Virus record (IMG/VR): IMGVR_UViG_3300037419_001325
Location: 1-54,706 of that record
DNA length: 54,706 bases
Origin: a virus
Lineage: Duplodnaviria; Caudoviricetes
Direction: 5' to 3' (one strand)
Part shown: in pieces, positions 3,485-47,657 of the stretch
Numbering within the stretch: the stretch's first letter is position 1
How the letters are laid out: each line of letters starts with the position of its first letter
Position numbers and translations under genes: made by a program
Notes under the pieces: generated by a model
Database searches by the model: none
What the model was told of the DNA's origin: nothing
The model's input: only the letters and a program-made list of their open reading frames with translations

Positions 3485-3682
3485 TCACAACGCCGATAGC
3501 TCCCCGCGGTCGGTGTCTCGGCGGGCGTCGTTGAGGATGTCGGTAGCTTCACGGATCGCGGCCGACAGTTGCCGCAACCGCCACGATGGGATGGGACGCC
3601 CTGTGCGCGCGGCCTTCTGCAGTTCGAGTGCAACGCCGCCCAGGGACCTGGCTGCCTGGCCCGCGGGCGTCATATCGGCCAT
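3485..3682 (-). CDS. Hypothetical protein
   Basis: 65-aa ORF between two hairpins. Confidence 0.55.
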   Translation of the reverse strand: MADMTPAGQAARSLGGVALELQKAARTGRPIPSWRLRQLSAAIREATDILNDARRDTDRGELSAL

Positions 3683-31773: not shown

Positions 31774-32334
31774 GTGAAATACGCAGGGGGAGTGGCTGTT
31801 GCCCTCATCGCCGCAGCAGCCGTCGCCGGATGCTCATCCGACGACAACACCACCGCCCACGCCGACACCAGCATCGGCACCCCAGCCAAGGCGCCGGCCA
31901 CCGCCGCGCCCATCCCGGTCACCATCGGTCAGCCGTTCCTGATCAGCAGTTCCAAGGGCACAACCGGACTGGTCACCGTCGACAAGATCGAGCTCAACCC
32001 GACCTGCACCACCAAGTTCGGTCCGGTCACCCCGCCAAAAGGCACCAACGTAGCCGTCGAACTGGACGTGCAAACCAACGCGATCCCACCCAGCACCTAC
32101 ATCACCGAAAACTGGTTCCAGGAACTCACCCCCGACGGCTACACCAAACGCCTGCCGATGGCCGACAACCTTTGCATCGCCGACCGCGAAGACATGGGCA
32201 CCCCCTACCAGCCGAACTCGAAGTATCACGGCTGGGTACTGCTCGATGTCTCCAATACCGCGTCCTCCCTGCTGATGTCGGACATCTACGACGGCCGCCC
32301 GGTCCCCGAGGTGCATCGCATCCCGATCAGCTGA
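31774..32334 (+). CDS. Lipoprotein in lysogeny module (superinfection-exclusion candidate)
   Basis: Lipobox VAGC; beta-rich C-terminal domain; sits between repressor and integrase. Confidence 0.7.
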   Translation: MKYAGGVAVALIAAAAVAGCSSDDNTTAHADTSIGTPAKAPATAAPIPVTIGQPFLISSSKGTTGLVTVDKIELNPTCTTKFGPVTPPKGTNVAVELDVQTNAIPPSTYITENWFQELTPDGYTKRLPMADNLCIADREDMGTPYQPNSKYHGWVLLDVSNTASSLLMSDIYDGRPVPEVHRIPIS

Positions 32335-33682
32335 GCCAGTCGATGTGGATGTCGTCCGGCTGAAACTCCGCGCCCTTGCGTGTCGGCCGGATGACGATCC
32401 GCATCAGCGCGGCCACCATCTCCCGCTGCCGATCCAACCCCGCAGCATCGAACGCGGCCTGTACATCGTCGGCGCCGATCACCCCCTCGAAGATCCTGGC
32501 CTTCTGCGAATCCGCCATCCGCGCCTCAATCTCCGCCAACTCCGTCGTCAGGCGTTTCGCCGTCTTCAACGCGAACGAAGCCATCATCTGATCGTCCTGC
32601 GTGAACTCCGCTTCCAGTGCTTCCAGCTTCCCGCGCAGCACAGCCGCTTTCGCACTCAACTCCCCAACCCCCTCCCGATCCCGGTCCACCAGCAGTTCTT
32701 TCGCGTCCGGCCGCGACAGGCGACCCACCACCAGGCCCGTAACGAACTTGTCCACCATCACCTGATTCCGGCCGATCCCATGACATTCACGGCAGATGTA
32801 CATGGTCGACTTCCATGCCGTCTGCCCAGACCCCAACGTCGTCCCGTCATCGCACTTGCCGCACAACGCCAACCCCGACAACAGGTACTTCCGGCCACCG
32901 CTGCCCGGCCGCCGCCGCTCCGGATCAGCCCGGATCGCGCACACAGCCCTCCACGTCTCCTCATCCACCAACGCCGGCCAATCGCCCTTACGCACGATCT
33001 CCCCGTTGTAGGCGAGCAGCCCAGCCAATTTCGGGTTCACCATGTACTGGGACACGGTCGGCCCCCGCCACTGATTCCCCACCGTGGTCGTCAAACCGGC
33101 GAGGTTCCATGCCTGCGCGATCGAACCGAACGACGAGCCTGCCAGGAACCGTTCGAACCCCTCCCGCGCCGCGGGCGCCTCTACCGGGTGGGGTTGCATG
33201 TCCTCGGTGTAGCCGAACAGTCGGCGGTTTCCCCACGGCTTCCCCGCCTCCGCGCGCTGCCGGTGAGATGCTTTCTGCCGCGCCGACTTCTGATCCATCT
33301 CCGCCCGCGCCACCGCGCCTTTGATACGTGCGTACAACCGACCATTGTGAGTAGCGAGGTCGATCTCACCGGTGACGGTGACGAGCATCAGCCCCTTCCG
33401 GTCCGCGAGATCGATGAACGTCTCCAACTCGGCCGGATGCCGGTGCAGCCGGTCCAGGTCCCACGCCACTACCGCGCCGATCTTCCCTTCCTGGATATCG
33501 GTGATCAGCTGTTGATACGCGGGCCGTGTGCCCTTCATCGCGGACCGGTCGTTGTCGATGTATTCGGTGGCGTCCCAACCGTGCTCGTCGCACTTCTCCC
33601 GGCATGGGCCGCGCTGGCGAGAGATGGCGAGCATGTTGCCTTCACGGTCGAGGGACTGGCGGAGGTAGATGGCTGCGTGCAT
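32327..33682 (-). CDS. int: Large serine integrase
   Basis: YLRQS catalytic motif, DLDRLHR, recombinase domain, Zn ribbon LLSGLALCGKC...YIC..C, coiled coil. Confidence 0.95.
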   Translation of the reverse strand: MHAAIYLRQSLDREGNMLAISRQRGPCREKCDEHGWDATEYIDNDRSAMKGTRPAYQQLITDIQEGKIGAVVAWDLDRLHRHPAELETFIDLADRKGLMLVTVTGEIDLATHNGRLYARIKGAVARAEMDQKSARQKASHRQRAEAGKPWGNRRLFGYTEDMQPHPVEAPAAREGFERFLAGSSFGSIAQAWNLAGLTTTVGNQWRGPTVSQYMVNPKLAGLLAYNGEIVRKGDWPALVDEETWRAVCAIRADPERRRPGSGGRKYLLSGLALCGKCDDGTTLGSGQTAWKSTMYICRECHGIGRNQVMVDKFVTGLVVGRLSRPDAKELLVDRDREGVGELSAKAAVLRGKLEALEAEFTQDDQMMASFALKTAKRLTTELAEIEARMADSQKARIFEGVIGADDVQAAFDAAGLDRQREMVAALMRIVIRPTRKGAEFQPDDIHIDWLS

Positions 33683-33690
33683 CCCCCGAG

Positions 33691-33759
33691 GCTACCCGAT
33701 ATACGTTCTCCAGTAATGAGTTACGGCATGTAGATGACCGAAGCACGTATATGGGTTGC
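33691..33759. mobile_element. Candidate attP
   Basis: AT-rich imperfect IR GCTACCCGATATACGT / ACGTATATGGGTTGC immediately upstream of int. Confidence 0.55.
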
Positions 33760-33819
33760 GCTGGGGACATGCGAAAGGCCGCGACCCGCACCCAGCGGAC
33801 CGCGGCCCTCGCCCAGCTG

Positions 33820-33924
33820 TCAGCCGACCAGAGCGGTCAGAACAGCGATGAGAACGACGCCCACGACATGGGCGACGGTCCCCCACGGCACCGCGGAAGC
33901 GGCAGCCGAAAGACTCGCGATCAT
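33820..33924 (-). CDS. 34-aa hydrophobic micro-protein
   Basis: AAGGAG RBS; MIASLSAAASAVPWGTVAHVVGVVLIAVLTALVG. Confidence 0.6.
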   Translation of the reverse strand: MIASLSAAASAVPWGTVAHVVGVVLIAVLTALVG

Positions 33925-34115
33925 AATTGCTCTCCTTCTATTTCTCGTGTTTCCGAGGACTTGGCGTGATGCGCCGCGAAACTCGATTCAGCGTTCGCGT
34001 ACAGGCTGAGCAGAATCACCCAGATAATCGAGTCCTTCCACCACAGGACCGAAGGAACCGCCAACAGAATCCACACCCACCCGAGAATGCGGTGACGATT
34101 GTCGGCGATCCACAT
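33921..34115 (-). CDS. Small two-TM membrane protein (holin candidate)
   Basis: ILGWVWILLAVPSVLWWKDSIIWVILLSLYAN, charged tail; in endolysin operon. Confidence 0.6.
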   Translation of the reverse strand: MWIADNRHRILGWVWILLAVPSVLWWKDSIIWVILLSLYANAESSFAAHHAKSSETREIEGEQL

Positions 34116-34192
34116 CAGCGCGGGCTGATGCCGAAGACACGCAGCAGGCATTGCACTGCGGCGAACCAGGCGGCATCCAGGCGGTCGATCAC
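34115..34192 (-). CDS. 25-aa micro-ORF
   Basis: GTGA and TGATG overlaps; MIDRLDAAWFAAVQCLLRVFGISPR. Confidence 0.5.
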   Translation of the reverse strand: MIDRLDAAWFAAVQCLLRVFGISPR

Positions 34193-34257
34193 CATGGCCT
34201 CGCCATGTGGAGCAGCCACTGAATCAGCTGATACGCCAGCCACGGATTGACAATCAC
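34189..34257 (-). CDS. 22-aa micro-ORF
   Basis: GTGA overlap with endolysin stop; MIVNPWLAYQLIQWLLHMARPW. Confidence 0.5.
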   Translation of the reverse strand: MIVNPWLAYQLIQWLLHMARPW

Positions 34258-35495
34258 TTACCCGATACTTTTCGGATAAGCGCCGCGATCCCATCGCGCA
34301 TCGTCAGTTCCTCGCCCTTCGAATTCTGGCCCAGCGAAGAATCCGCACTCCAATCGGGATGCTTCGGGCCGAGCTGTTCGAAAATGTAATTCAGCTTCGC
34401 CCGATCCTCGTCGGTGAATGCCATATCGTCGTCCTCTCCGTTCGCCGACCACTGCCCGTAATCGGCTGTCGTTGCCTTGTTGATGTCGCACTGGACCCCG
34501 CCGACCCAGGCGTATCCGGTGTTGTTCAGCTGCAGCAGCTGCGCGCGGCTATCGACGTTGCCGCCCGACCACGCCTCCGCCTGCCACCCCCACCGCGCCG
34601 TCCCGTTGTCCAGGCAGCGCTTCACCACCCAATAGCCGCCGTACACGCCGACGTTGTCCTCGCCGATCACGGTGGCGGCGCCGCGGAGGTAGTCGTCTAT
34701 CGCGCGTTGCTGAGACTCGAATGCATCCCAGTCCGCGGAGAAGTAGATCGGCCGATCCCGCTGGCCGCCGCACCGAAGCACCTGCGCGAGGGCGGCGTTG
34801 GCGTCGTCCACGCCTGCTTGCCAGCCCTCCAACATGCGGTCCGCGTAGGTTTCCCAGTTCGACACGATCTCCACCCCGGCAGCGCGGAGCCGGTCGGCCT
34901 CGTCGGGGGTAAGTAGCTTGCCGGGCAGGTTCGGTCCGCCATCGGACAGGTAGCGGACAACGAACTCGTATCCGGCGGCCCGGATCGCGGCAGGGTCCGG
35001 GCGGCCACCGGCATAGTCCAGGCCGAGCGGGTACGACATACGTGTTCCTCCAGGTTCGAGTGCGCCGTTCAGCCACGGCAGCGGGGGAAGGCGGTCCGAG
35101 CCGGGCGGCACCCACACCGACCGGTGCACCTCGAAATGCAGGTGCGGGGCAACATTTCCGTTCGTCGCGGGATTGGGGTTGATGTGTCCGATCTGCTGCC
35201 CGGCCGCCACCCGGTCACCCACCGCAACCTCGCGCACGATGTGCCCATACACGGTGGTGCCGGCCCCGGCCTCGGTGGGATGGTCGATGACGACCCACCC
35301 GGCGGGATCGGGGCCACCGAAACCAGCCGCGGGCCCGGCGTAGACGACTTGGCCGGCCTGCGCCGCGTACACAGGTAGGCCGCCGCTGCCGCCGTTCTTG
35401 CCGAAGTCCACGCCCCAGTGGAAGCCTTCGGGGCGTTGGCCGAATCCGCTGGTGACTACCCGGCCCGAGCCGAGAGGCCAATAGCGTTCGCTCAT
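34254..35495 (-). CDS. lysA: Endolysin: M23 peptidase + DUF1906/GH25-like hydrolase + C-terminal domain
   Basis: HWGVDF, YGH, PHLHFEVH (M23); GLDY..RYLS..IYFSAD..GVYG..CDIN (GH25-like); leaderless start after late promoter. Confidence 0.9.
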   Translation of the reverse strand: MSERYWPLGSGRVVTSGFGQRPEGFHWGVDFGKNGGSGGLPVYAAQAGQVVYAGPAAGFGGPDPAGWVVIDHPTEAGAGTTVYGHIVREVAVGDRVAAGQQIGHINPNPATNGNVAPHLHFEVHRSVWVPPGSDRLPPLPWLNGALEPGGTRMSYPLGLDYAGGRPDPAAIRAAGYEFVVRYLSDGGPNLPGKLLTPDEADRLRAAGVEIVSNWETYADRMLEGWQAGVDDANAALAQVLRCGGQRDRPIYFSADWDAFESQQRAIDDYLRGAATVIGEDNVGVYGGYWVVKRCLDNGTARWGWQAEAWSGGNVDSRAQLLQLNNTGYAWVGGVQCDINKATTADYGQWSANGEDDDMAFTDEDRAKLNYIFEQLGPKHPDWSADSSLGQNSKGEELTMRDGIAALIRKVSGK

Positions 35496-35502
35496 GGCGC
35501 GC

Positions 35503-35523
35503 ACGGTAGGCGGTGGGGGTGCA
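35503..35523 (-). promoter_or_regulatory. Late-type promoter motif copy 4
   Basis: TGCACCCC-N7-TACCGT, ATG 7 nt downstream. Confidence 0.75.
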
Positions 35524-35672
35524 ACCCTCGCGCGCGTACGCGGGTACGCGCACGAACGCGCGGCACTATCCGCGACGCTGCTGGTGCCGGGTAGTGACCT
35601 ACGCAGCATTGATGCCAGCTAACTACCCGTACGCGAGCATGTATGATCATGGCGTACGAAAGGAATCCAGCC

Positions 35673-35975
35673 GTGACCATCCGCTACCTCAACGCCCGCG
35701 AGTTCGCCGAGCGCATCGGCGTAGGCCGCAACACCCTGTGGCAGTACAAGCTGCCGCCGCCGGACGCGATGATCGGTGACCGGAAAGGCTGGCTCCCGCA
35801 GACGATCGATGCATGGCAGGAACGCCGCCCCGGCCACCGCACCAAGCAGGCGGACGAGAACTGGCACCTCCCTCCGGAGGTAGCAGCCACGCTGGTGCCC
35901 GCTACTCGCCCGCCATCGCGGCGAAAGCGTCAAACGACGCCAACTCATCCTCCGGAGCAAAGCCAGCCGGAATAA
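35673..35975 (+). CDS. AlpA/excisionase-like winged-HTH protein
   Basis: YLNAREFAERIGV..TL..YKLPPPDAMIG..KGW...TIDAW; GAAAGGA RBS. Confidence 0.75.
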   Translation: MTIRYLNAREFAERIGVGRNTLWQYKLPPPDAMIGDRKGWLPQTIDAWQERRPGHRTKQADENWHLPPEVAATLVPATRPPSRRKRQTTPTHPPEQSQPE

Positions 35976-36788
35976 CCTTCAACTCGCCCGACCGCGTATC
36001 GATGGTCTCTTCCCGGTACATTTCCCGGTTGAACTCGGCCAATTCCTTCTCGCCCATATTCTCGGTCCACAACACCTCCACGAAATCCAGCACCGCGTGC
36101 ATATCCGGCAGTTGCCGTAGTGGATCGGGAATTCCGGACTTGATGAATTGGCCTCGGACTACGCGCCAATTACGCGCCGCGAATTGCGCTAGGGCCGCGA
36201 CGGCTCGATAGGGCGGGCCGTGTCCAGGGTGGCGATTTTCTCGATCACCCGGCCGAAGTCATCGACCGTGAAATTGTCGTCCGGGTTCATCATCCGTTCC
36301 AGCATCCGCTGATAGCTCAACGGCGAAATGTGGCGCTGCACGAACAGCGTCATCATCTGGACTTTGATTTCGTCGGGCGTGTACTTCGAGGCCGCCATCG
36401 AAAACGCCTGCAACGCGGCCGGTTGCGGTTTCCGCACCTGGATCAGCTCACCGTCGAGTTCAACGGTGGCGTGCTTCCACTTCGGGATCGGCTTCCCGAA
36501 CCCGTCGAGGATCACCTCACCGGTGTCGATGTCGACCTCGTACTCCTCACCATCGGAATCCACGACAGCCGGGGTGTACGGGCGCGGTGTCTCGGTGCGC
36601 ACGGGGGAGGGCTCGCCGGTGGGCTGGATGATCTGCGGCTGATCCTCCTGGAAACGCCGCTGACGGATCAGCGCCTTCTCGGCCTCCAGCTCCGCCTTCT
36701 CGCGCTCGAGCTGTGCGCGGTCGGCCTCGATGCTGTTCACCTGGCCGTTCAGGTCGGCCATCCCGCTGGGGGGTTCGATGTTCGTCAT
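35902..36788 (-). CDS. Tail assembly chaperone with probable -1 frameshift (short form 36189..36788)
   Basis: GGAGG RBS; short ORF ends ARPIEPSRP; -1 frame stays open through AVAALAQF...FDAFAAMAGE. Confidence 0.7.
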
Positions 36789-36831
36789 GGTGTCCTCCAT
36801 CCGTTACTGCTGCCCTGGGGTACAGGCGCGC

Positions 36832-36852
36832 ACGGTAGGGGGCAGGGGTGCA
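36832..36852 (-). promoter_or_regulatory. Late-type promoter motif copy 5
   Basis: TGCACCCC-N7-TACCGT, leadered transcript. Confidence 0.75.
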
Positions 36853-36956
36853 GAACTCCCGCCATCAAGATTCGGGCCCCAGACTTGAAACTGAGGGCTC
36901 TACTTTCAAGACTGTTTGTGAGTACACTCTGCGGTGGGCGGGTTGATCGCCGCCTG

Positions 36957-37139
36957 CTCGGGTTGAGGATTACCGGCGGAAGCGCGCATCCAAAACAGCG
37001 AGAACCACATCCCACGGGAGTAGCTACCCAGTTGGGCGAGGGGAGGCCCCTCTAGTGGTCGGCCTGGCAGCGCAGTTTAGAGGACCGCATTCGTGGCGCC
37101 TCGCATATCGGGTTCGACTCCCGACACCTCAGACCCGAG
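36957..37139 (+). ncRNA. Structured RNA with T-arm, tRNA-like element 1
   Basis: Terminal stem CTCGGGT-TGAGG / CCTCA-G-ACCCGAG; T-arm TCGGG-TTCGACT-CCCGA 37108-37124. Confidence 0.5.
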
Positions 37140-37144
37140 GCCGA

Positions 37145-37226
37145 TGGCTGTTCCTCGGCGCGACCTCGTGAGAAAACTCGGTTAAGTCCGGGCCGCGAGT
37201 GCCGGGTTCGATTCCCGGGCAGCCAC
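37145..37226 (+). ncRNA. tRNA-like element 2 (non-canonical D and anticodon arms)
   Basis: 7-bp acceptor TGGCTGT/GCAGCCA directly adjoining T-arm CCGGG-TTCGATT-CCCGG; 82 nt; no encoded CCA. Confidence 0.6.
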
Positions 37227-37341
37227 TACAGGTTTACCCCCGGGTCAGGCTCCACCCTGATCACCGCGAACTTTCAGTGGTGCATGCGGTCCACGTACTC
37301 GTCTGCGGGACACTGCGATCGGTGCCCGGGGTACGGCCAGC

Positions 37342-37956
37342 TTACGGGATGGCGGGCACGCTGAACAGGTCCAACCGGACGGGCCCGACCTTGCCGAGCC
37401 GGGACGGTATCGGGTCACCCCATGCGGTGGTGTACCAGTCGATACCCCACGCCGACGTGTACCACGACACCTCCACCTTGGCCTTCATCTGCTGCCCCGG
37501 GGCGAGGGTGGCGATATCGCCGATCGGGACCGAGTTGGTGGGTTGCCGGTCCTCCAGCAGGAAATAGATGGCCGCGGTGCCGCCGCCCGATCCGGTGGAC
37601 CCGGTGCCGAGGTCCCCGTACCCGCGCATCAGGGATTCATCCGTCAGGGTCGGATCAGCGGGGGAGGTACCGGAGGACACACCCCACCGGGTGCGGATCG
37701 TCAGATCCTTCAACCCGTCGATCGAATACCGTTGCGGGCCCTGCGTCATCAACGCATACACCTGCTGCGATATCCCGGTGTCGTTCGTCCACACCACATT
37801 CACCGTGAACAACACCGTCCCCGGGGAGACGTTGGACGCTGGGGTGAAGGTCGCGCCACCACCCTGCGCGGTCGCCCGCTGCGCCCACTGCCACCGCCGC
37901 AACGGGTCGAGCGCCCCATCTGTCGTGTCGAAGAAAGAACTATCAGCACAGGTCAT
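37342..37956 (-). CDS. Minor tail protein
   Basis: Last of three paralogous beta-rich ORFs (WTN motif) in the tail operon. Confidence 0.75.
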   Translation of the reverse strand: MTCADSSFFDTTDGALDPLRRWQWAQRATAQGGGATFTPASNVSPGTVLFTVNVVWTNDTGISQQVYALMTQGPQRYSIDGLKDLTIRTRWGVSSGTSPADPTLTDESLMRGYGDLGTGSTGSGGGTAAIYFLLEDRQPTNSVPIGDIATLAPGQQMKAKVEVSWYTSAWGIDWYTTAWGDPIPSRLGKVGPVRLDLFSVPAIP

Positions 37957-37959
37957 GAT

Positions 37960-38538
37960 CTACTCCGGAGCCGCCCACAGCAGCAGCCGCACCCAGTAGG
38001 CGCGCACCACCTGGAACGCCTGGTTAGGGTCACGCCACTGCCCCGGCGTGGTGTAGAGGGCGCGGTAACGGATGTGCGCGGTCTGCCCGGCCGGCACCAC
38101 CCCCAACGACTGAAATCGAGTGTTGTCGTCCCAGCCACGGAAGAACCTGCCGTAGTTGATCTGGTTCAACGCAAACGGGGTAATGGAGGCGCGGCACCCG
38201 ATACCGTCCTCCGTCGCGTACGGGTCCGGAGCATTCGGCGAGACGGCGATATCGAAGCTCACCGCGTCATCGAGGGCGTACGTGTTCGGATTGGTCGCGA
38301 CGATCGTCCGCGGTGCGCGATGGGTCGACAGCCAGCACTGCTGATCGGAGCCGGTGGCGTTGGTCCACGACATCTCCGCGTCGATGAAGATCACCGGGTC
38401 CGGCGCGCGCTGAACGTTGCCGTCCTTCGTGCTGGTGGTGAATCGTTCGGCGACAATGCGCGGCATCCACGCTTCCGCGAACCCTGTCCCGCGGGGCCCG
38501 GAGATCATCATCTCCGACGAGCAGATCGCGATACTCAT
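37960..38538 (-). CDS. Minor tail protein
   Basis: Paralog: ICSS...WTN...NPN...RYRA...RLLLWAAP. Confidence 0.75.
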   Translation of the reverse strand: MSIAICSSEMMISGPRGTGFAEAWMPRIVAERFTTSTKDGNVQRAPDPVIFIDAEMSWTNATGSDQQCWLSTHRAPRTIVATNPNTYALDDAVSFDIAVSPNAPDPYATEDGIGCRASITPFALNQINYGRFFRGWDDNTRFQSLGVVPAGQTAHIRYRALYTTPGQWRDPNQAFQVVRAYWVRLLLWAAPE

Positions 38539-39149
38539 CGAACCGCCTCATCCAAGGTAGGGAACGCCCACAACCGCAACGTGACCCCGCGCGCCCACGC
38601 CTCATGCAGCGGATTGTTGGCGCTGGCGTTGTTGCTCCAGGGTGGGGGAGTCCAGCAATACGCGCGGTATTTGATCTGGATTGAGGACCCGGCCGGCAGG
38701 TCGTACCACTCCTCCGACGCGCTGGCTGGGTAGTGCTGGTGGATGCGCGCATAGAACGGCTGGGATGCCTGGTCGGTGCCCATGTCCCACGACAGCGTGG
38801 TCAGCGAGTTGACGAGGTTGTAGGAGTCGGGAGTGACCGCGGACCGGTCGATACCCACATTCCAGGAGTCCCAGATTTGCACGGCGTTAGGGTTTGACGC
38901 GATCAGGGTCCGGTATTTGCGGATGACCTGCAACCGCATCACCGAAGCTAGCGGCGAATCCGACGTCCACGACACCGAGGTGTCGATCATCAACCGACCC
39001 GGCTGAGACGGGAGACCCGCACTGCTGATCGTGCCGTCACCGGTGGAGGTGGCGGTCTGCTGCGCGACCAAGCGGGGCGCGGACCACTTCGCGATCCCCA
39101 GCACACCGGAGGTGATGGACAGGTTGCGGCTGGCACAGACTTTCGGCAT
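38535..39149 (-). CDS. Minor tail protein
   Basis: Paralog: VCAS...WTS...NPN...KYRA...LRLWAFP. Confidence 0.75.
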   Translation of the reverse strand: MPKVCASRNLSITSGVLGIAKWSAPRLVAQQTATSTGDGTISSAGLPSQPGRLMIDTSVSWTSDSPLASVMRLQVIRKYRTLIASNPNAVQIWDSWNVGIDRSAVTPDSYNLVNSLTTLSWDMGTDQASQPFYARIHQHYPASASEEWYDLPAGSSIQIKYRAYCWTPPPWSNNASANNPLHEAWARGVTLRLWAFPTLDEAVR

Positions 39150-42245: not shown

Positions 42246-45200
42246 CTATAGCAGCGACAGCAGATGGTCTTGGAGCGCGACCGGCCCACCCGACCCGACG
42301 TAATGGATGGGGGCGTTCACGGTGGTGTTGCCGCGGCGCCGGCCACCGTTCTCCAGTGCGGCCACGAGCCGGTCGAACGACTCCGTCTGCCGCGGGGACA
42401 GGACGCGTTCGGGGCTGATGGTGTCTTTCGGCATGTAGCCCTTGCCGTAGGCGATACCGCCCTCATCGAAGCTGTCGATCGCCGCGCCTGCGCCGACCGC
42501 GATACCCGACACCACCACCGCCGCCAGGCCAGCCAGAGCCGCGCCCACAACGGCGCCGATAGCCGCACCGATGGCTGTGCCGATGCCGGGGATGATGGAG
42601 CCGATAGCGGCGCCGATCGCGGTGACGACGAGTTGGATCATCGCCGAGAGGATCGCGGTCAGGATTGGGATCAGCACGGCCGTAATCAGGTACCGCAACA
42701 CCGCTTTCATCAGCGCTGTGTTCAGCCGGTTCATCTCCTGGATGACCAGGTCGCGGGACGATTCGTTGCGTTGCATCAGGTCCGCGGTATCGGCGACGAT
42801 TCGGCCCGTCGCGTCGAACGCCGACTGCTGATCGCCACGGAACCGGCGGATCTCGTCGTTCGCTTTCACCAAGTTGTCGCGGATCTCGATGTTCACACCG
42901 GTCAGGCGGACGATCATGTCCACCAGTGGACCGCCGGAGATGTCCTTGCCGAGCGTGCCCCTGGAGTTCTGGACCTTCGAATCCTGCTGCGCGAGGGCCG
43001 CATTGGCGACCTGCTGCGCCACCTGCTGGAACGCGCTCGTAGCAGCCTGCGCCACCGACTGCACAGCCTTCGATATCTCCGCCACCGCGTCGAACGCCGA
43101 GCCTGGCGCGCCAAACGGGGACACCGCGCCCGGACCGGGGTTGTTGCCGCCCGGTGTCGTCGCCACCGTGCCGTTCAAGTTGTTCACCGCGGCCGTCGTC
43201 GCGTTCGCCGCATCCACCACCGTGCCGAACCCGGACCCCAGCCAGTCCTTCACCACGCCCAGCGCGGAATCGAACGCGGACTGCATGATCGGGGTCAGCA
43301 CCCCGCCCGTGAGCCTGTTCGAAATCTCTGTCAGGACGGCCCGGAGTTGTTCGGTCTGCTGCTGGGTCACCAATTCCTGGCTGGACTCCGAACGCAGCAC
43401 CAGATCCCGCGTCTGGGCCGCAACCTGTCCCGTCTGGGAGATTGCTTCCGCGGTCTGCTCCTGGAACTTCTGATCCTCCGGCGTCTGCCGCGGCGCGAGC
43501 TGCACGCCCAGCAGGTTCGACAACACATCTATCCCGGAGGTGAACACCGCATTCGTCAGCAAGTCGGGATCGGAGCGGCCGGGGGAGCCGCCCGCGATCT
43601 GCTGCAAACTCATCACCATCGCGTCGAACAAACGGGTCTGCTCGGGGCTGAGGACGCGTTCGGGCGCGATCACGTTCTTCGGCATGAACCCGGTACCCGA
43701 CGCGAGACCGCCGGAGTCGAAAGGCGTCACGAAGTCCAGCACCTTGCGGCCGGCATCCACGACGGAGCTGCCCACCGACTTCGCCTTGGTCCACGCGGAC
43801 GACAGGCCATCGGTCAGCCCATCCGCCAGGCCGGTCAGGTACTTCACCGACCCGTTCTCGAATGCGCCCAGGTATTCGCCCGGGATCTTCCGGAATTGGG
43901 GCGGCGGCGCCCCGATCTCGGTATCGATGCGCCGGCGGATCGGTTCCGTCAGACCGTGCACGATATCGGCGATCTTCCGCGCCAGGAAACCATGCTGATC
44001 TGACACCGAAGGACCGACGGACCCGCCGCCCGCGCCGGGCTGGAAATAGCCGTTGGCGCCGATTGGCAGGTGGTAGATGGACGCGAAGCTGGTCGGGTCG
44101 GTGCCCGCCCCGTAATGCACGTCGCCGAGCGCGCCACCGGATTCCGCGCGCATCGCTGTAGCGATACCGAGCAGCGGGATAGCGCCGAGAACACCCGCGG
44201 TGTGGCCGCCGCCGGGCCCGCCGGGGTCGTCGGTGACGCCGATGGTGAACCCGGCATCCGGACCCGATGTGAACCCCATGGGCCCGGTCTGCGGGTAGCC
44301 CGCGAACGAACTGGTCGACCAATACCGCTGCCACGGATTGAGACCGAGGATCGACGCGGCGATAGATCCCATGAAGCCGGAGCAGTCGAACGAATCCCCG
44401 ACGAACCGCGGCCCCGCCCACTGGTACGGCTTCCCCGACTGCTCACGCGCGAAGTTGTGACCGGCGAGCAACTGATACATCCACGGTTCGACTGCGCCGC
44501 CCTGCGCAAACCGCGGCTGCAGCTGATCGAACAACCCTTCGGGGCTGACGTTGCCGATGCCCTTCGCCGCCACCGCGGCGCCGTACCGGTCCAGGTTGTC
44601 CCGGCCGAGGTCGGTGACGATCTTGCCGTTGTCCCACGTGAAGGGGATGCCGCGGGCGATCATGTCGCGGATCGCGTACAGCACGTTCTGGCCGCCGGCG
44701 GCGATCACTTCCCGCGCGGTGACGACGTGCTCGCCGTTGGACAGGTAGGCGAGGATGTCGTCGGAGGTGCCGGAGCCGGGGCCGTTGACGCCACCGCCGC
44801 GCGCGAATGCGAGTTCAACAGGCTTGAGCTCTCCCAGGCCCGGAAGGAACCCAGCGACCGCGTTCCAGGCTTTGAGTAGCCCGCCGTTCCAGACGGTGCC
44901 GATGACGAACCTCACCGGATCGGCGGCGGCACTCTTCAGTCCATCCCAAATGGTTCGGATGCCCTTGACACCGTCATCGAACCAGCCTTTGACCTTGTCA
45001 ATAGCGTCGCCGATCTTCGGGAACAGTGTGTCGGTCAACCAGTCGACGCCCTTGCCGATGGAGTCATTCATCGTCTGCCAGTCGTCGGTGATCAACCGCA
45101 GCGCAGGCAGCAGCAGCTTCTGTACGACCTCGGTGACGAACCAGGTCCAGGCATTGATGAGGTCGGTGAGGATCGGTAGCAGGATCTTCAATATGTCGAT

Positions 45201-47657
45201 CAGGCCAGGCATGACCTGCACTGCGAGGTCCACCAGCTGCGGCAGCAGCGGGATCACAGCCAGCAGCAGATTCGCGAACGCACCCACCAGTTGCGGCAGG
45301 AACGGCGCCAGCTCCTGCAAAGCGCTCGCGAGCGCCTGCCCGAGTGTCATCGCGACCTGCGCCAGCACCGGCGCCAACTGCTGAATCACCGGCTGCATCT
45401 GCTGCGCGAACGACTGAATCACCGGCGCCAACGCCTGGAACACCGTCGACAGCGCAGGCGCGAGAGCCTGGATAGCGACCGACAGGTTCTCCGCGATCAG
45501 CGGGACAATCGGCGCGACCGCGGTCAACAGGTCAGCGAACGCCTGCGCCAGCGGCCCCATGGCGGGGGCGAGCGCATTCACAGCGCCGACCAAGGCGTTG
45601 CCGATCACCTGAACGATCTGCGACAGCGGCCCGATCATCGGGGTCAGCGCGGTCATCAACGCGGACAGCAGGTTCGAGATCACCGGCAGAATCGGGGCCA
45701 GCCCCTCCGCCAGATCCCCGATGAACGTGCCCAACTGCGGCAGGATGGGGGTCAGGGCGTCCGCGAATGCCGCTCCCAGGTCCCCGAGTCCCGGCGCGAG
45801 GTTCACCAGTCCCTGGCCGAGCGCTTCGAGCATCGGCCCCAGCGACGGCAATACCCTGTCCGCGATCGTGAGCAGCGCGGTGGTGAAATTGCCGAGCAAC
45901 GGCCCTATCCCGGACAGGGTTTGCGCGAACCCGTCCAGCACCGAATCCAGCAACCCCGAGTTCGCGGCATCCGAGAACGCGGCCCCGATGCTGTCGCCGA
46001 TCAACGCGACCTGCTGCCCGATCCCGACCAGCGCCGGGGTCACGACGTGGACGAAATCCAACAGTCCCTGTGTCGCTTCACCGGTGCCCATGCGGAAACC
46101 GGCCATCAGGTTCGTCGCACCCTGGAAGACATCGGTCAGCCCTTGCAGGCCGCGCGCGGACCCGAGGAAGTCCAGGGCCGATTTCGCGGCGCCGTTGAAC
46201 TGGGTGGCGACACCCACCATTCCGGTCTGCAACACCGGCAGCACCCGACCGGACACATCCGTCAATGTGGCGCCGAGGCCGGCGAATCCCGCGTCTTGGA
46301 CGGCGTTCTTCACGCCCTCCATCGCCGGTTTCAATCCGACGAGGGCGCGCACGAACTCTTGCGCGTTCGGCGACAGCTTCGACATCGCCTCCGCGTAAGC
46401 CTGCTGAGTGGTCGTGCCTTTCGCCTGCTCGGCCGCCAAATCCCGCACAGCTTTCGCCGCATCCCTGGACGCGATCGACGCCTCATACTGGGCGTCCGCC
46501 AGGCGCTGCTCGGCCTGCTGCTGTTTGTCCTTCGCCGCGGTGACCGCGTCGCTGCCTTCGATGCCCTTCTTCTGCGCTTCGGCGTTGTCCTGCTGCGCGC
46601 GAGTGTTCTCGTCAACGGCCTGGTCGTAACGCAGCTGGGCCCGCTCCAACGCGACGAGATCCTTCTCATGCTGCGCCGGATTGAACACCGACTGCTGCGC
46701 CGTCTTCGTGGCCTCCCGCAGGTCGATCGCCGCTTCCTTCTGCGAGATCGACGCCCCCCGCGCCCGCAACATCGCGTCCTCGAGATCACGACCCGCCTGC
46801 TGATACGCCCGACCCACATCCTCGGCAGCGGTCTTCGCGTCCTTCTGCGCATCCGCTAGAGACCGTTGCGCGATCTGCGCGTTATGCGCGGCATCCGACA
46901 CCCGGTCCTGCGCGTCCGCCAACGCCCTCGACTTATCCGCCGCTTCGAGGGCTTCCTTCGGGCCGTGCTCGCTCGCGTCGTTCGCGGCCTTGATCGCGTC
47001 CTTGAAGCCGTTCAACCCGACTACCGCGGTCGCCATGATCCCGCCGGCCGCCGGACCCACCGCAGCCAACGCGGTCGCCAGACCACCCACCAAACCGGTC
47101 GCCGCCCCAGCGGCACCGCCGATACCAGCGACGATTCCGGTGAGCCCGGCCAGCTTCCCGGTATTCAGCGCAACCGAGCCAATCGCAGAACCGAGCCGCG
47201 TGAACGCCGCGGTGCTGGCGTCAGCATCACCTTTCAGCCGGGATGTTCCGCTCGAGGAAGTCGAGAACCGCGATCCCGCTGTGGCCGCTGCCGCAGCTGA
47301 TCGGGCGCGAGCCACGGTGGACTGGTCGACCTCCACCCGGACCTGCTGCGTGATCGGACGCGCTTCACGCTCCAGATCAGCGTGGACGGCCCGCATGTGT
47401 TCGGTGACACCAGTAGCGTCGAGGTCGACGGCGATTTCTACGCCGAGATTCGCTGCGTCCAAACGGGTTTGGAGTGCCCGCAAATGGTCGTTGACGGTGG
47501 AGTCATCGAAGTTGATGTTGATGGGGACGGTGAGCGGCCGGGCGTCCATCTGCAACTGGACTTTCCGCATCGCGGAGATGACCACGCGCGACAGGTCCGC
47601 TTCGAACCCGCGCGCGTCCGCGGTGATAGGTATGCGGATTCCGCCGGGCGCAGTCAC
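42246..47657 (-). CDS. Tape measure protein
   Basis: 1803 aa, Ala/Gly/Leu-rich helical repeats; NlpC/P60-like PYQWAG...FDCSG...GHT segment. Confidence 0.95.
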   Translation of the reverse strand: MTAPGGIRIPITADARGFEADLSRVVISAMRKVQLQMDARPLTVPININFDDSTVNDHLRALQTRLDAANLGVEIAVDLDATGVTEHMRAVHADLEREARPITQQVRVEVDQSTVARARSAAAAATAGSRFSTSSSGTSRLKGDADASTAAFTRLGSAIGSVALNTGKLAGLTGIVAGIGGAAGAATGLVGGLATALAAVGPAAGGIMATAVVGLNGFKDAIKAANDASEHGPKEALEAADKSRALADAQDRVSDAAHNAQIAQRSLADAQKDAKTAAEDVGRAYQQAGRDLEDAMLRARGASISQKEAAIDLREATKTAQQSVFNPAQHEKDLVALERAQLRYDQAVDENTRAQQDNAEAQKKGIEGSDAVTAAKDKQQQAEQRLADAQYEASIASRDAAKAVRDLAAEQAKGTTTQQAYAEAMSKLSPNAQEFVRALVGLKPAMEGVKNAVQDAGFAGLGATLTDVSGRVLPVLQTGMVGVATQFNGAAKSALDFLGSARGLQGLTDVFQGATNLMAGFRMGTGEATQGLLDFVHVVTPALVGIGQQVALIGDSIGAAFSDAANSGLLDSVLDGFAQTLSGIGPLLGNFTTALLTIADRVLPSLGPMLEALGQGLVNLAPGLGDLGAAFADALTPILPQLGTFIGDLAEGLAPILPVISNLLSALMTALTPMIGPLSQIVQVIGNALVGAVNALAPAMGPLAQAFADLLTAVAPIVPLIAENLSVAIQALAPALSTVFQALAPVIQSFAQQMQPVIQQLAPVLAQVAMTLGQALASALQELAPFLPQLVGAFANLLLAVIPLLPQLVDLAVQVMPGLIDILKILLPILTDLINAWTWFVTEVVQKLLLPALRLITDDWQTMNDSIGKGVDWLTDTLFPKIGDAIDKVKGWFDDGVKGIRTIWDGLKSAAADPVRFVIGTVWNGGLLKAWNAVAGFLPGLGELKPVELAFARGGGVNGPGSGTSDDILAYLSNGEHVVTAREVIAAGGQNVLYAIRDMIARGIPFTWDNGKIVTDLGRDNLDRYGAAVAAKGIGNVSPEGLFDQLQPRFAQGGAVEPWMYQLLAGHNFAREQSGKPYQWAGPRFVGDSFDCSGFMGSIAASILGLNPWQRYWSTSSFAGYPQTGPMGFTSGPDAGFTIGVTDDPGGPGGGHTAGVLGAIPLLGIATAMRAESGGALGDVHYGAGTDPTSFASIYHLPIGANGYFQPGAGGGSVGPSVSDQHGFLARKIADIVHGLTEPIRRRIDTEIGAPPPQFRKIPGEYLGAFENGSVKYLTGLADGLTDGLSSAWTKAKSVGSSVVDAGRKVLDFVTPFDSGGLASGTGFMPKNVIAPERVLSPEQTRLFDAMVMSLQQIAGGSPGRSDPDLLTNAVFTSGIDVLSNLLGVQLAPRQTPEDQKFQEQTAEAISQTGQVAAQTRDLVLRSESSQELVTQQQTEQLRAVLTEISNRLTGGVLTPIMQSAFDSALGVVKDWLGSGFGTVVDAANATTAAVNNLNGTVATTPGGNNPGPGAVSPFGAPGSAFDAVAEISKAVQSVAQAATSAFQQVAQQVANAALAQQDSKVQNSRGTLGKDISGGPLVDMIVRLTGVNIEIRDNLVKANDEIRRFRGDQQSAFDATGRIVADTADLMQRNESSRDLVIQEMNRLNTALMKAVLRYLITAVLIPILTAILSAMIQLVVTAIGAAIGSIIPGIGTAIGAAIGAVVGAALAGLAAVVVSGIAVGAGAAIDSFDEGGIAYGKGYMPKDTISPERVLSPRQTESFDRLVAALENGGRRRGNTTVNAPIHYVGSGGPVALQDHLLSLL

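What the first reader, a model, noticed from the sequence alone, without database searches (positions are those of the whole stretch)
36884..37333. About 400-nt structured non-coding locus with two tRNA-mimic modules, antisense to the tail operon
Seen: a roughly 490-bp gap without a credible gene on the plus strand carries (i) a 183-nt unit closed by a 12-bp bulged stem, with inner helices GCGAGG/CCTCGC and CCTCTAG/TTAGAGG and a canonical T-arm (TTCGACT loop) near its 3' end; (ii) an 82-nt unit with a 7-bp acceptor stem adjoining a T-arm (TTCGATT) but no canonical D-loop or anticodon loop (best 7-nt loop AAGTCCG lacks U33 and purine 37); (iii) a third multi-hairpin unit 37235-37333. Upstream is the IR CTTGAAA/TTTCAAG (36884-36910) and TACACT at 36923. 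Inference: a tRNA-mimic ncRNA, for example a decoy for anticodon nucleases, an RNase P/Z processing tag, or a Y-RNA/tmRNA-like RNA, rather than decoding tRNAs.
Basis: partly seen in the sequence, partly recalled or inferred. Interest (0 to 1): 0.75.

Follow-up and report, generated by a model that had tools for sequence, protein, structure and literature searches.

The report
tRNA and tmRNA remnants in phage
A dispensable stretch of non-coding DNA between two tail genes of an uncultured soil phage carries a fragment of a tmRNA gene end and one broken tRNA-shaped unit, most likely leftovers of recombination and not a working RNA gene.

Summary
The gap is real: 541 nt (36801-37341) between two minus-strand tail-module genes. 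The two T-arms are real and non-random: GGTTCRANTCC occurs twice in 54.7 kb, both here, against 0.22 expected.

No detector calls a tRNA, tmRNA or Rfam family at normal thresholds. No unit folds better than shuffled sequence, with z from -0.96 to +0.32.

Unit i's T-arm plus 3' acceptor strand is a 23-nt tmRNA-type 3' end: I read 7 of 9 genomic matches as tmRNA ends. Its 5' partner is at chance level. Unit ii is a full tRNA-shaped unit; its 7/7 acceptor stem was reached by 149 of 20000 shuffles, but its anticodon arm is broken.

The locus is accessory. The one close relative lacks units ii and iii. Other near-identical variants lack about 490 nt. None of 50 distant relatives has a T-loop motif.

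Best reading (0.5): non-decoding tRNA/tmRNA remnants in an indel-prone insert. A working tRNA-like decoy RNA is not excluded (about 0.17). Strand and expression remain untested.

The parts
36801..37341 (.). Intergenic gap (541 nt) between two minus-strand tail-module genes.
   Evidence: ORF list and Pfam. The only ORFs inside are short and Arg/Pro-rich. The 76-aa minus-strand ORF 36785-37015 is broken by a net -64 nt change in the X3 variant.
36855..37135 (+). Segment A. It is shared with relative G001/L003 and absent from the 'empty-site' variants. Ends are good to about 2 nt.
   Evidence: Alignment with L003. Contig joints 36852/36854 -> 37344/37346 in run X2 and loose ends in X4. The letters after the L003 insert match the filler of the empty variants at 24 of 34 positions (my reading).
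37141..37343 (+). Segment B (units ii and iii). It is present in the window and in the X3 variant. In L003 about 33 nt carrying a short hairpin stand in its place.
   Evidence: X3 contig, record 14, covers 36944-37650.
36880..36914 (.). Inverted repeat CAGACTTGAAA / TTTCAAGACTG, 13-nt spacer. The 25 letters that replace 36855-36943 in the X3 variant do not include it.
   Evidence: pair I3, 91% complementary. tables 5 and 5c.
36923..36928 (+). TACACT box (a TAnnnT, -10-like hexamer). It is kept in the window, L003 and the X3 filler.
   Evidence: table 5c. The consensus scan does not call it a promoter.
36932..36960 (.). GC-rich 10-bp hairpin, identical in L003. It overlaps the '5' tRNA domain' of a relaxed ARAGORN tmRNA guess.
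   Evidence: (pairs at columns 3-31).
36957..37139 (+).
   Evidence: MFE fold. Duplex test: window 120 of 1000 shuffles as good, L003 5 of 1000, with the same upstream partner in both.
37108..37130 (+). tmRNA-type 3' end block: T-arm plus the first 6 nt of the 3' acceptor strand.
   Evidence: 9 genomic matches. By ARAGORN, 5 are 3' ends of tmRNA genes, 2 are tRNAs and 2 are uncalled; I read the 2 uncalled as tmRNA-type ends. 22 of 23 nt match the annotated tmRNA 3' end of Mycobacterium phage Kumao. Similarity to 6 tmRNAs stops at 42 nt or less.
37043..37131 (+). Relaxed-threshold ARAGORN 'tRNA-Ser(aga)', 89 nt, with only 4 acceptor pairs.
   Evidence: 80% thresholds only. A best 5' partner of 6 of 7 pairs is reached by 12273 of 20000 shuffles.
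37145..37226 (+). Unit ii: an 82-nt tRNA-shaped unit. It has a 7-bp acceptor stem, a 4-bp D stem (one G-T pair), a perfect T-arm, an aberrant anticodon arm (3 pairs, 6-nt loop) and a long variable region.
   Evidence: 14.0 bits mascRNA, 13.8 bits tRNA-Sec; 149 of 20000.
37227..37341 (+). Unit iii: hairpins no better than chance, with no homolog.
   Evidence: z -0.96, 34 of 200 shuffles as good. Absent from L003.
36988..37015 (-). Terminator-like hairpin followed by TGTTTTGG on the operon strand. L003 has a different hairpin before the same T-run.
   Evidence: and my reading.
37342..37956 (-). Third DUF7172 paralog; its stop codon abuts the insert.
   Evidence: PF23787, E 6.2e-08.
36189..36800 (-). 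Phage_TAC_16-like gene downstream of the gap.
   Evidence: PF23781, E 9.8e-34. It is 56% aa identical to its L003 counterpart.

Best explanation
The gap holds an accessory, indel-prone insert of about 490 nt. It was built in at least two steps: segment A (36855-37135) and segment B (37141-37343). Some near-identical phages lack it.

On the + strand, antisense to the tail operon, it carries non-decoding remnants of tRNA-type genes:
1. A 23-nt block that matches the 3' end (T-arm plus 3' acceptor strand) of tmRNA genes. Nothing upstream of it is recognisably tmRNA.
2. One complete but degenerate tRNA-shaped unit: acceptor, D stem and T-arm are kept, and the anticodon arm is broken.

Shown: the modules exist, they derive from tRNA/tmRNA-type genes, they fail every tRNA, tmRNA and Rfam test, and they are dispensable in this lineage.

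Inferred: they arrived by illegitimate or att-type recombination. The source was either a tRNA/tmRNA gene array of another phage or a tmRNA/tRNA integration hot spot. They now ride along as passengers and are read, if at all, as antisense by read-through of the tail operon. Any present effect would come from the hairpin-plus-T-run and the inverted repeat that the insert places in front of the TAC_16-like gene. It would not come from a tRNA-like RNA.
For: - ARAGORN at default finds 0 genes in the window, in L003 and in the whole relative G001.
- Rfam at gathering thresholds gives 0 matches, and 0 at E<=10 over 36700-37500. RF00005 gives 0 and RF00023 gives 0 at E<=10.
- No fold beats shuffles.
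- By ARAGORN, 5 of the 9 genomic matches to unit i's block are tmRNA 3' ends; with 2 uncalled ends that I read as tmRNA-type, 7 of 9. Similarity to 6 tmRNAs stops at 42 nt or less. Its 5' acceptor partner is at chance level (12273 of 20000 shuffles).
- The acceptor and CCA positions differ by indels between the window (CACCTCAGACC) and L003 (CATCCTCGACC). So the exact 3' end is not held constant.
- L003 lacks units ii and iii.
- Contigs in runs X2 and X4 skip 36853-37345, with 27-34 other letters in between. The X3 variant drops the inverted repeat (all three runs belong to one study).
- 0 of 50 distant relatives have a tRNA call or the T-loop motif. Annotated Bclasvirinae have 29 and 34 nt at this junction.
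- No + strand promoter or terminator is found.
- The window has no tyrosine integrase, SmpB, TROVE or CCA-adding enzyme gene. G001 was searched only for the tyrosine integrase and has none.
- Known precedents: tRNA gene fragments left by integrating elements (PMC9897764, abstract), and a 24-bp tmRNA 3'-end core in cluster K1 phage attP (PMC3203893, passages).
Against: - Both T-arms are perfect: 5-bp stems with consensus loops. The single T-loop change in L003 (G to A) keeps the purine.
- Unit ii's 7/7 acceptor stem is unlikely by chance (149 of 20000). Neutral decay should erode the stems as fast as the anticodon arm.
- In L003 the tail after the T-arm pairs with the same upstream site better than 995 of 1000 shuffles, despite three indels relative to the window.
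- The full form occurs in two diverged variants, the window and X3.
- Only two full sequences could be compared, so conservation is poorly sampled.
- Strand and expression are untested.
- No donor array or host tmRNA was found.
Confidence: 0.5

Rival explanations
1. A working tRNA-like small RNA, or two, is made from the + strand. An acceptor/T-arm minihelix would be processed by RNase P/Z. It would act as a decoy or competitor for factors that bind tRNA or the tRNA-like domain of tmRNA, such as SmpB, EF-Tu, the CCA enzyme or tRNA-targeting defence nucleases.
For: - Both T-arms are perfect and confined to this locus.
- Unit ii's acceptor stem is non-random.
- Unit ii gets its only Rfam matches from models that share an acceptor and T-arm: mascRNA 14.0 bits and tRNA-Sec 13.8 bits.
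- The L003 closing stem is significant.
- TACACT is kept in three variants.
- My reading: unit ii has GG..CGAC a few nt after the acceptor strand, where the tmRNAs have GGnnTCGAC.
- A Mu-like phage contig (L114) has an 86-nt non-canonical tRNA-like unit with 29 of 32 nt the same at the T-arm and 3' end, followed by a terminator-like hairpin.
- Phage use of t(m)RNA fragments against defence has a precedent in AcrIIIA1 (PMC11662646, passages).
Against: - All scores lie far below family cut-offs (14 against 42.5 and 47 bits).
- Neither unit has G3-U70 or an encoded CCA.
- There is no thermodynamic signal.
- No + strand promoter or terminator is found.
- Units ii and iii are absent from L003, and the whole locus is absent from other variants.
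- The GG..CGAC and L114 resemblances are post hoc and untested.
Confidence: 0.17
2. The functional content is on the operon strand. The insert is a terminator-plus-promoter or operator cassette that re-times expression of the TAC_16-like gene and the lysis genes behind it. The T-arms would be incidental cargo.
For: - A minus-strand hairpin plus TGTTTTGG lies at 37015-36988. L003 has a different hairpin before the same T-run.
- A 35-bp inverted repeat contains TTGAAA on both strands, about 75 nt upstream of the gene.
- In L003 and the empty variants a short hairpin follows the DUF7172 stop codon. One pair in it changes on both sides (T-A to C-G) (my reading).
Against: - The scan finds no sigma-70-like promoter on either strand.
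- The terminator-like stem is weak: 6 pairs, 2 of them G-T.
- The X3 variant lacks the inverted repeat.
- Relatives do without any of it.
Confidence: 0.15
3. It is an att-type recombination site or scar. The tmRNA 3'-end block would be the core of an attP/attB-like site, used by, or left by, an integrase that targets the tmRNA gene.
For: - The 23-nt block is the size and position of known cores. Cluster K1 phages carry a 24-bp core equal to the extreme 3' end of tmRNA (PMC3203893).
- 15 of the 31 IMG/VR hits for unit ii's T-arm that carry no gene call are bare tmRNA-type 3' ends, several at contig ends.
- Segment A ends at the tmRNA-like 3' terminus. It begins with AACTCCCGCCATC, which resembles the distal T-arm of unit i (12 of 13 nt in L003, my reading).
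Against: - There is no tyrosine integrase in the window or in the complete relative G001.
- The only recombinase is a serine type, 3 kb away.
- The left-end resemblance scores 19, below the window-wide 99th percentile of 22.
- The exact 25-nt 3' end of unit ii is in none of the representative genomes.
- Unit ii has a real 5' acceptor strand, which an att fragment would lack.
Confidence: 0.1
4. It is a miniature or decaying tmRNA gene spanning about 36930-37135.
For: - ARAGORN at 80% thresholds proposes a tmRNA at 36930-37132, with 5' TGCGGTG pairing 6 of 7 with CACCTCA.
- The 3' end is of tmRNA type.
- Phages of this host range can carry a tmRNA: Kumao has one of 407 nt.
Against: - Nothing is called at 90% thresholds. 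At 70% ARAGORN adds tmRNA guesses on the other strand as well. L003 gets none at 80%.
- RF00023 gives 0 at E<=10.
- Position 3-70 is C-U, not G-U.
- The proposed tag differs between the window and L003: 23 and 11 residues in that frame (my reading).
- A 6-of-7 partner is expected by chance.
- At 203 nt it is about half the normal size.
Confidence: 0.05

Closest known systems
tRNA/tmRNA gene fragments left or carried by integrating elements. Examples: the 24-bp tmRNA 3'-end core of cluster K1 mycobacteriophage attP (PMC3203893), and tRNA gene fragments in prokaryote genomes (PMC9897764).
   Same: A short block equal to the T-arm plus 3' acceptor strand of a tmRNA/tRNA gene sits in non-coding mobile DNA. 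Standard detectors do not call it as a gene.
   Different: There is no tyrosine integrase next to it or anywhere in the genome. It lies inside a tail operon on the opposite strand. One module (unit ii) also has the 5' acceptor strand and a D stem.
Phage-encoded tmRNA genes, for example Mycobacterium phage Kumao gene 80 (407 nt).
   Same: 22 of 23 nt are the same at the T-arm and 3' acceptor end, and the host group is similar.
   Different: Here there is no GGGG 5' end, no G3-U70, no conserved tag frame and no covariance-model or ARAGORN call. The best candidate span is 203 nt.
Pseudo-tRNAs and decayed members of phage tRNA arrays.
   Same: The units are tRNA-sized with a good T-arm and acceptor but a defective anticodon arm, spaced a few nt apart on one strand.
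   Different: No intact tRNA is found in the window (an 89%-complete record) or in the complete relative G001. The units are antisense to the neighbouring genes, and no donor array was found.
Acceptor/T-arm tRNA-like RNAs processed by RNase P/Z (mascRNA, Rfam RF01684), and TLD-only tmRNAs.
   Same: Unit ii aligns to the acceptor and T-arm of the mascRNA model.
   Different: The score is 14.0 bits against a 42.5-bit cut-off. mascRNA is a vertebrate family, so this is a likeness in shape only.
Bacterial Y RNAs (YrlA) with Ro60.
   Different: There is no Rfam match and no TROVE/Ro60 gene in the window.

Membership tests
tRNA (Rfam RF00005; ARAGORN) | Cloverleaf recognised by a covariance model or by ARAGORN at default thresholds. 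| tested here: not met
   0 genes and 0 matches at E<=10. Calls appear only at 80% ARAGORN thresholds.
tRNA (Rfam RF00005; ARAGORN) | 7-bp acceptor stem directly abutting a 5-bp T stem with a TTCRANY loop. | tested here: met
   Met for unit ii: 7/7, reached by 149 of 20000 shuffles. For unit i the T-arm is met, but the acceptor partner is at chance level (12273 of 20000).
tRNA (Rfam RF00005; ARAGORN) | 5-bp anticodon stem, 7-nt loop with U33 and purine 37, and a D loop with GG. | tested here: not met
   Unit ii has 3 pairs, a 6-nt loop and a D loop (GCGCGACCTCG) without GG. Unit i's relaxed model has 4 of 5 pairs and only 4 acceptor pairs.
tRNA (Rfam RF00005; ARAGORN) | Processing, CCA addition and aminoacylation. 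| not testable with these tools
   No CCA is encoded. The only RNA data are unstranded contigs.
tmRNA (Rfam RF00023; ARAGORN -m) | tmRNA-type T-arm and 3' acceptor strand. | tested here: met
   Unit i block 37108-37130: by ARAGORN 5 of 9 genomic matches are tmRNA ends, 7 of 9 with 2 uncalled ends that I read as tmRNA-type. Kumao tmRNA matches 22 of 23 nt.
tmRNA (Rfam RF00023; ARAGORN -m) | 5' GGGG acceptor strand with G3-U70, and the whole gene recognised by a model. | tested here: not met
   RF00023 gives 0 at E<=10. ARAGORN -m gives 0 at default and at 90%. The best candidate has C3-U70.
tmRNA (Rfam RF00023; ARAGORN -m) | Conserved tag reading frame after a resume codon. | tested here: not met
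   The frame proposed gives 23 residues in the window and 11 in L003, with different ends (my reading).
attP/att core of a tRNA- or tmRNA-integrating element | Core identical to the 3' end of the host tRNA/tmRNA gene. | tested here: inconclusive
   Unit i's block equals tmRNA ends of several phyla, but the host is unknown. Unit ii's 25-nt end has 0 exact matches in the representative genomes.
attP/att core of a tRNA- or tmRNA-integrating element | A tyrosine integrase gene beside the site. | tested here: not met
   PF00589 is absent from the window and from the complete relative G001. A serine recombinase lies at 32327-33682.
Y RNA / YrlA | Rfam match and a Ro60 (TROVE) partner gene. | tested here: not met
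mascRNA-like tRNA-like RNA (RF01684) | Score at or above the family's gathering cut-off. | tested here: not met
   14.0 bits against 42.5.

The most novel reading that the evidence does not exclude
Unit ii, and perhaps unit i with its closing stem, is a phage-made acceptor/T-arm mimic of the tRNA-like domain of tmRNA or of a tRNA. It cannot be charged: it has U1-A72 and no G3-U70. Made from the + strand, it would soak up SmpB, EF-Tu, RNase P or a tRNA-targeting defence nuclease during infection. It would be an optional counter-defence or translation-control module that related phages gain and lose. The similar unit in the Mu-like contig L114 would then be a second member of an undescribed family.
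Probability: 0.12. Interest if true: 0.7.

Novelty: new member of a known kind. Interest (0 to 1): 0.3.

Why it matters
As read here it is ordinary. It is one more case of tRNA/tmRNA gene pieces scattered by recombination in mobile DNA.

It also carries two practical points:
- A perfect T-arm is not evidence of an RNA gene.
- It shows at fine scale how a tightly packed tail operon tolerates a variable non-coding insert.

It would matter if stranded RNA data showed a discrete + strand RNA. Uncharged tRNA-like or tmRNA-like decoys made by phages have not been described, as far as two searches show (title and abstract listings only).

Tried and rejected
- **Homologs of the locus.**
  - blastn 'distant' of 36750-37400 against 50,697 phage records gave no match at 1e-5.
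  - At E<=10 there were only T-arm-sized hits.
  - Three exact or gapped patterns in IMG/VR found only the one relative.
  - The TAC_16-like protein or its alignment found the same relative in IMG/VR and nothing in JGI metagenomes.
  - The second metagenome scan (TACACT pattern) gave 2 chance hits in unrelated coding DNA.
- **Consensus folding.** With only two sequences it gave '6' and '4' double changes on the two strands. I do not count these, because the alignment in the variable patch is unreliable.
- **Further T-arm-like repeats at the insert ends.** They scored 19 and 18, below the window-wide 99th percentile of 22-23. This is a lead only.
- **Small protein genes in the gap.** Rejected, since the ORFs are not kept across variants.
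- **Group I intron, retron, MITE/MPME, Y RNA.** No supporting feature was found; MPME and retron were judged from recall only.
- **Run X5 (DNA).** It has no cover over 36876-37411. A hole in contigs proves nothing.
- **Depth in the RNA libraries.** It cannot rank expression, and transcription is not shown.
Full report
**Context**

The window is a 54,706-nt IMG/VR virus record, estimated 89% complete. Its GC content is about 64%.

Around the finding all credible genes run on the minus strand:
- three DUF7172 paralogs (39149-37342);
- the gap;
- a Phage_TAC_16-like gene (36800-36189);
- a lysin A with M23 peptidase and Rv2525c-like domains (35609-34254);
- a serine recombinase at 33682-32327.

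The nearest cultured phages are Gordonia and Mycobacterium phages (Bclasvirinae and Sourvirus). They share only 26-45% protein identity. Imvubu and Funsized have the same gene order, with just 29 and 34 nt where this window has 541 nt.

Real features:
- The gap 36801-37341 has no credible ORF on either strand.
- The two T-arms are exactly as described.
- The motif GGTTCRANTCC occurs twice in the whole window, both times here, 94 nt apart on the + strand. Chance gives 0.22, and 3 of 100 shuffles give 2 or more anywhere.
- Unit ii (37145-37226) has a 7-bp acceptor stem. I shuffled the tRNA-sized stretch upstream, and a 7/7 partner appeared in 149 of 20000 trials. So unit ii is a complete tRNA-shaped unit, not just a 3' piece.
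- The 12-bp bulged stem, the nested inner helices, the inverted repeat 36880-36914 and TACACT at 36923 are all in the sequence.

Features that do not hold up as "structured":

| Region | Folding z-score |
|---|---|
| Unit i | -0.65 |
| Unit ii | -0.39 |
| Unit iii | -0.96 |
| Whole insert, + strand | +0.32 |
| Whole insert, - strand | -0.20 |

- The closing stem of unit i is matched by 120 of 1000 dinucleotide shuffles in the window.
- For unit i's 3' acceptor strand, the best 5' partner within 200 nt pairs 6 of 7. That is reached by 12273 of 20000 shuffles.

**Detectors**

- ARAGORN at default thresholds finds no tRNA or tmRNA in the window.
- Rfam finds nothing at gathering thresholds, and nothing at E<=10 over 36700-37500.
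- The tRNA model RF00005 and the tmRNA model RF00023 give nothing at E<=10.
- On a 301-nt slice the only matches are mascRNA (14.0 bits, cut-off 42.5) and tRNA-Sec (13.8 bits, cut-off 47). Both cover unit ii and align only its acceptor and T-arm.
- With ARAGORN thresholds lowered to 80%, two pseudo-tRNAs appear. One is 'Ser(aga)' at 37043-37131, with only four acceptor pairs. The other is an unassignable 82-nt unit at 37145-37226 with a 6-nt anticodon loop.
- At the same 80% level ARAGORN also proposes a 203-nt tmRNA at 36930-37132. It proposes none at 90%, none for the relative at 80%, and at 70% it adds guesses on the other strand as well. I treat that as noise with a grain of truth, described next.

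**What unit i's T-arm is**

I scanned one genome per species for TCGGGTTCRACTCCCGACA(N)CCTC. That is unit i's T-arm plus the start of the 3' acceptor strand, written to fit both the window and its relative. It gave 9 places:
- 5 are the 3' ends of ARAGORN-called tmRNA genes;
- 2 are tRNAs (Lys, Ile);
- 2 carry no call. One of these lies 28 nt from a contig end and continues CCACCA. The other, in a Sphingopyxis MAG, continues CCACACC. I read both as tmRNA-type ends.

A genome holds far more tRNA genes than tmRNA genes (general knowledge), so this block looks characteristic of tmRNA. The annotated tmRNA of Mycobacterium phage Kumao shares 22 of 23 nt.

Similarity of the locus to six tmRNAs ends at 42 nt or less, that is, at the T-arm and acceptor. 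The relative's 3' end (CATCCTCGACC) and the window's (CACCTCAGACC) both look like mutated copies of CACCTCCACC. Each carries different indels.

For unit ii, 43 IMG/VR contigs carry the same T-arm followed by CAGC:
- 5 are tmRNA genes;
- 7 are tRNAs;
- 31 carry no call. Of these, 15 are bare tmRNA-type ends (CAGCTCCA), several at contig ends.

So that T-arm is common to tmRNAs and tRNAs and does not decide unit ii's origin. The exact 25-nt end of unit ii is in none of the representative genomes.

**Conservation**

Only one close relative could be fetched: G001/L003, 63.6 kb and 100% complete.

*G001/L003.* Genome-wide it is mostly 77-98% identical to the window, in mosaic blocks with two more divergent ones. 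The near-perfect identity of 36790-37000 is therefore just background. Within the locus:
- it keeps the 3' part of unit i, with the T-loop changed from G to A;
- it has a quite different 60-nt patch at 37000-37060;
- it lacks 37136-37343 (units ii and iii), with about 33 nt holding a short hairpin in their place.

*Variants in public runs.* I laid public contigs on 35000-39000 and found more variants. All the informative runs come from one study.
- In run X2, four contigs join 36852-36854 to 37334-37346; for three of them the tool gives the 27-34 letters that lie between.
- X4 shows matching loose ends.
- In X3 a contig covers 36944-37650 with 44 differences and indels clustered in 36996-37042. 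It replaces 36855-43 by 25 letters that keep TACACTCT..GGTGGGCGG but not the inverted repeat.

*How the insert was built.* The filler of the empty variants is 24 of 34 identical to the letters that follow unit i in L003, and its hairpin shows one change on both sides (my reading). The simplest history is therefore:
1. an ancestral short spacer with a hairpin;
2. then segment A (36855-37135);
3. then segment B (37141-37343) replacing the hairpin.

The reverse order, by deletions, is equally possible.

*Distant relatives.* I found 50 through a DUF7172 alignment, at 34-43% identity. None has a tRNA call, and none has the T-loop motif within 4 kb.

**Reading**

The locus is real tRNA/tmRNA-derived DNA, but I find no positive evidence that it is a working RNA gene:
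- it fails every family test;
- it has no fold signal;
- no promoter or terminator was found on its strand;
- it has no partner genes: no TROVE, SmpB or CCA enzyme in the window, and no tyrosine integrase in the window or G001;
- it is gained and lost among near-identical phages;
- the positions that matter most for a tRNA-like 3' end differ by indels between the two copies.

I therefore rate 'non-decoding remnants in an accessory insert' at 0.5. tRNA gene fragments produced by integrating elements are well known (PMC9897764, abstract). Actinophage attP sites can carry a 24-bp tmRNA 3'-end core (PMC3203893, passages).

**What argues the other way**

These points keep the functional reading alive, though they are few and partly post hoc:
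- Both T-arms are perfect.
- Unit ii's acceptor stem is non-random.
- In L003 the tail after the T-arm pairs with the same upstream site as in the window, at -24.3 kcal/mol. Only 5 of 1000 shuffles do as well, despite three indels.
- The full form exists in two diverged variants.
- A Mu-like phage contig (L114) holds an 86-nt non-canonical tRNA-like unit. 29 of 32 nt are the same around the T-arm and 3' end, and a terminator-like hairpin follows it.

**Rivals**

| Reading | Confidence |
|---|---|
| + strand decoy RNA | 0.17 |
| Minus-strand terminator/promoter cassette | 0.15 |
| att-type site or scar | 0.10 |
| Decayed mini-tmRNA | 0.05 |

**Novelty**

This is a new example of a known kind of thing. 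Two literature searches for phage pseudo-tRNAs or tRNA-like RNAs, and for phage-encoded tmRNA-domain mimics, listed no title or abstract describing such a decoy. I saw listings only, plus passages of PMC11662646 on t(m)RNA fragments bound by an anti-CRISPR.

The decisive test is stranded, end-resolved RNA data. The tools here could not give that.

Noticed in passing
window 32327-33682 (-) and 33683-34253: A 451-aa serine recombinase (Resolvase domain, E 2.6e-32) is followed by a 570-nt stretch without a clear gene. This may be a serine integrase with its attP, so the phage may be temperate.
   Followed up: partly
window 36000-36760 compared with G001: The TAC_16-like gene is a divergent patch between the two genomes: 29-47 of 60 nt identical in sliding windows, and 56% aa identity. 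Its flanks are mostly 54-60 of 60 identical. This looks like a mosaic module swap right next to the insert.
   Followed up: partly
window 37342-39149 (-): Three tandem DUF7172 paralogs lie here. The third is much more diverged from the family profile (E 6e-08 against 2e-63 and 5e-68). The TAC_16-like gene sits after them and not before the long 1803-aa ORF 42246-47657, which is probably the tape measure (not checked).
   Followed up: no
L114 6843-6928 (-), IMG/VR contig of a Mu-like phage: A non-canonical 86-nt tRNA-like unit (ARAGORN only at 80% thresholds; tRNA-Sec 15 bits) lies between a MuA-like rve gene and the next gene. A terminator-like hairpin follows it. Its T-arm and 3' end match unit ii at 29 of 32 nt.
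   Followed up: partly
L003 about 3625-3655, and the fillers of runs X2/X4 at window 36853/37345: A short hairpin directly after the DUF7172 stop codon is kept between the relative and the 'empty-site' variants. One pair changes on both sides (T-A to C-G). It may be a terminator or stability element of the ancestral spacer.
   Followed up: partly
runs X2-X4 laid on window 35000-39000: Root metatranscriptome libraries of one study hold several co-existing variants of this phage, 88-99% alike and covering 26-30 of 30 bins. They are a ready source for population-level comparison.
   Followed up: partly
L081, L088, L093, L097, L098, L103, L106, L108, L112, L113, L115, L116, L118, L120, L121: 15 IMG/VR contigs carry bare tmRNA-type 3' ends (..CCGGGTTCGATTCCCGGCAGCTCCA..) without a tmRNA gene, several at contig ends. 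They are probably att sites of proviruses integrated at ssrA.
   Followed up: no
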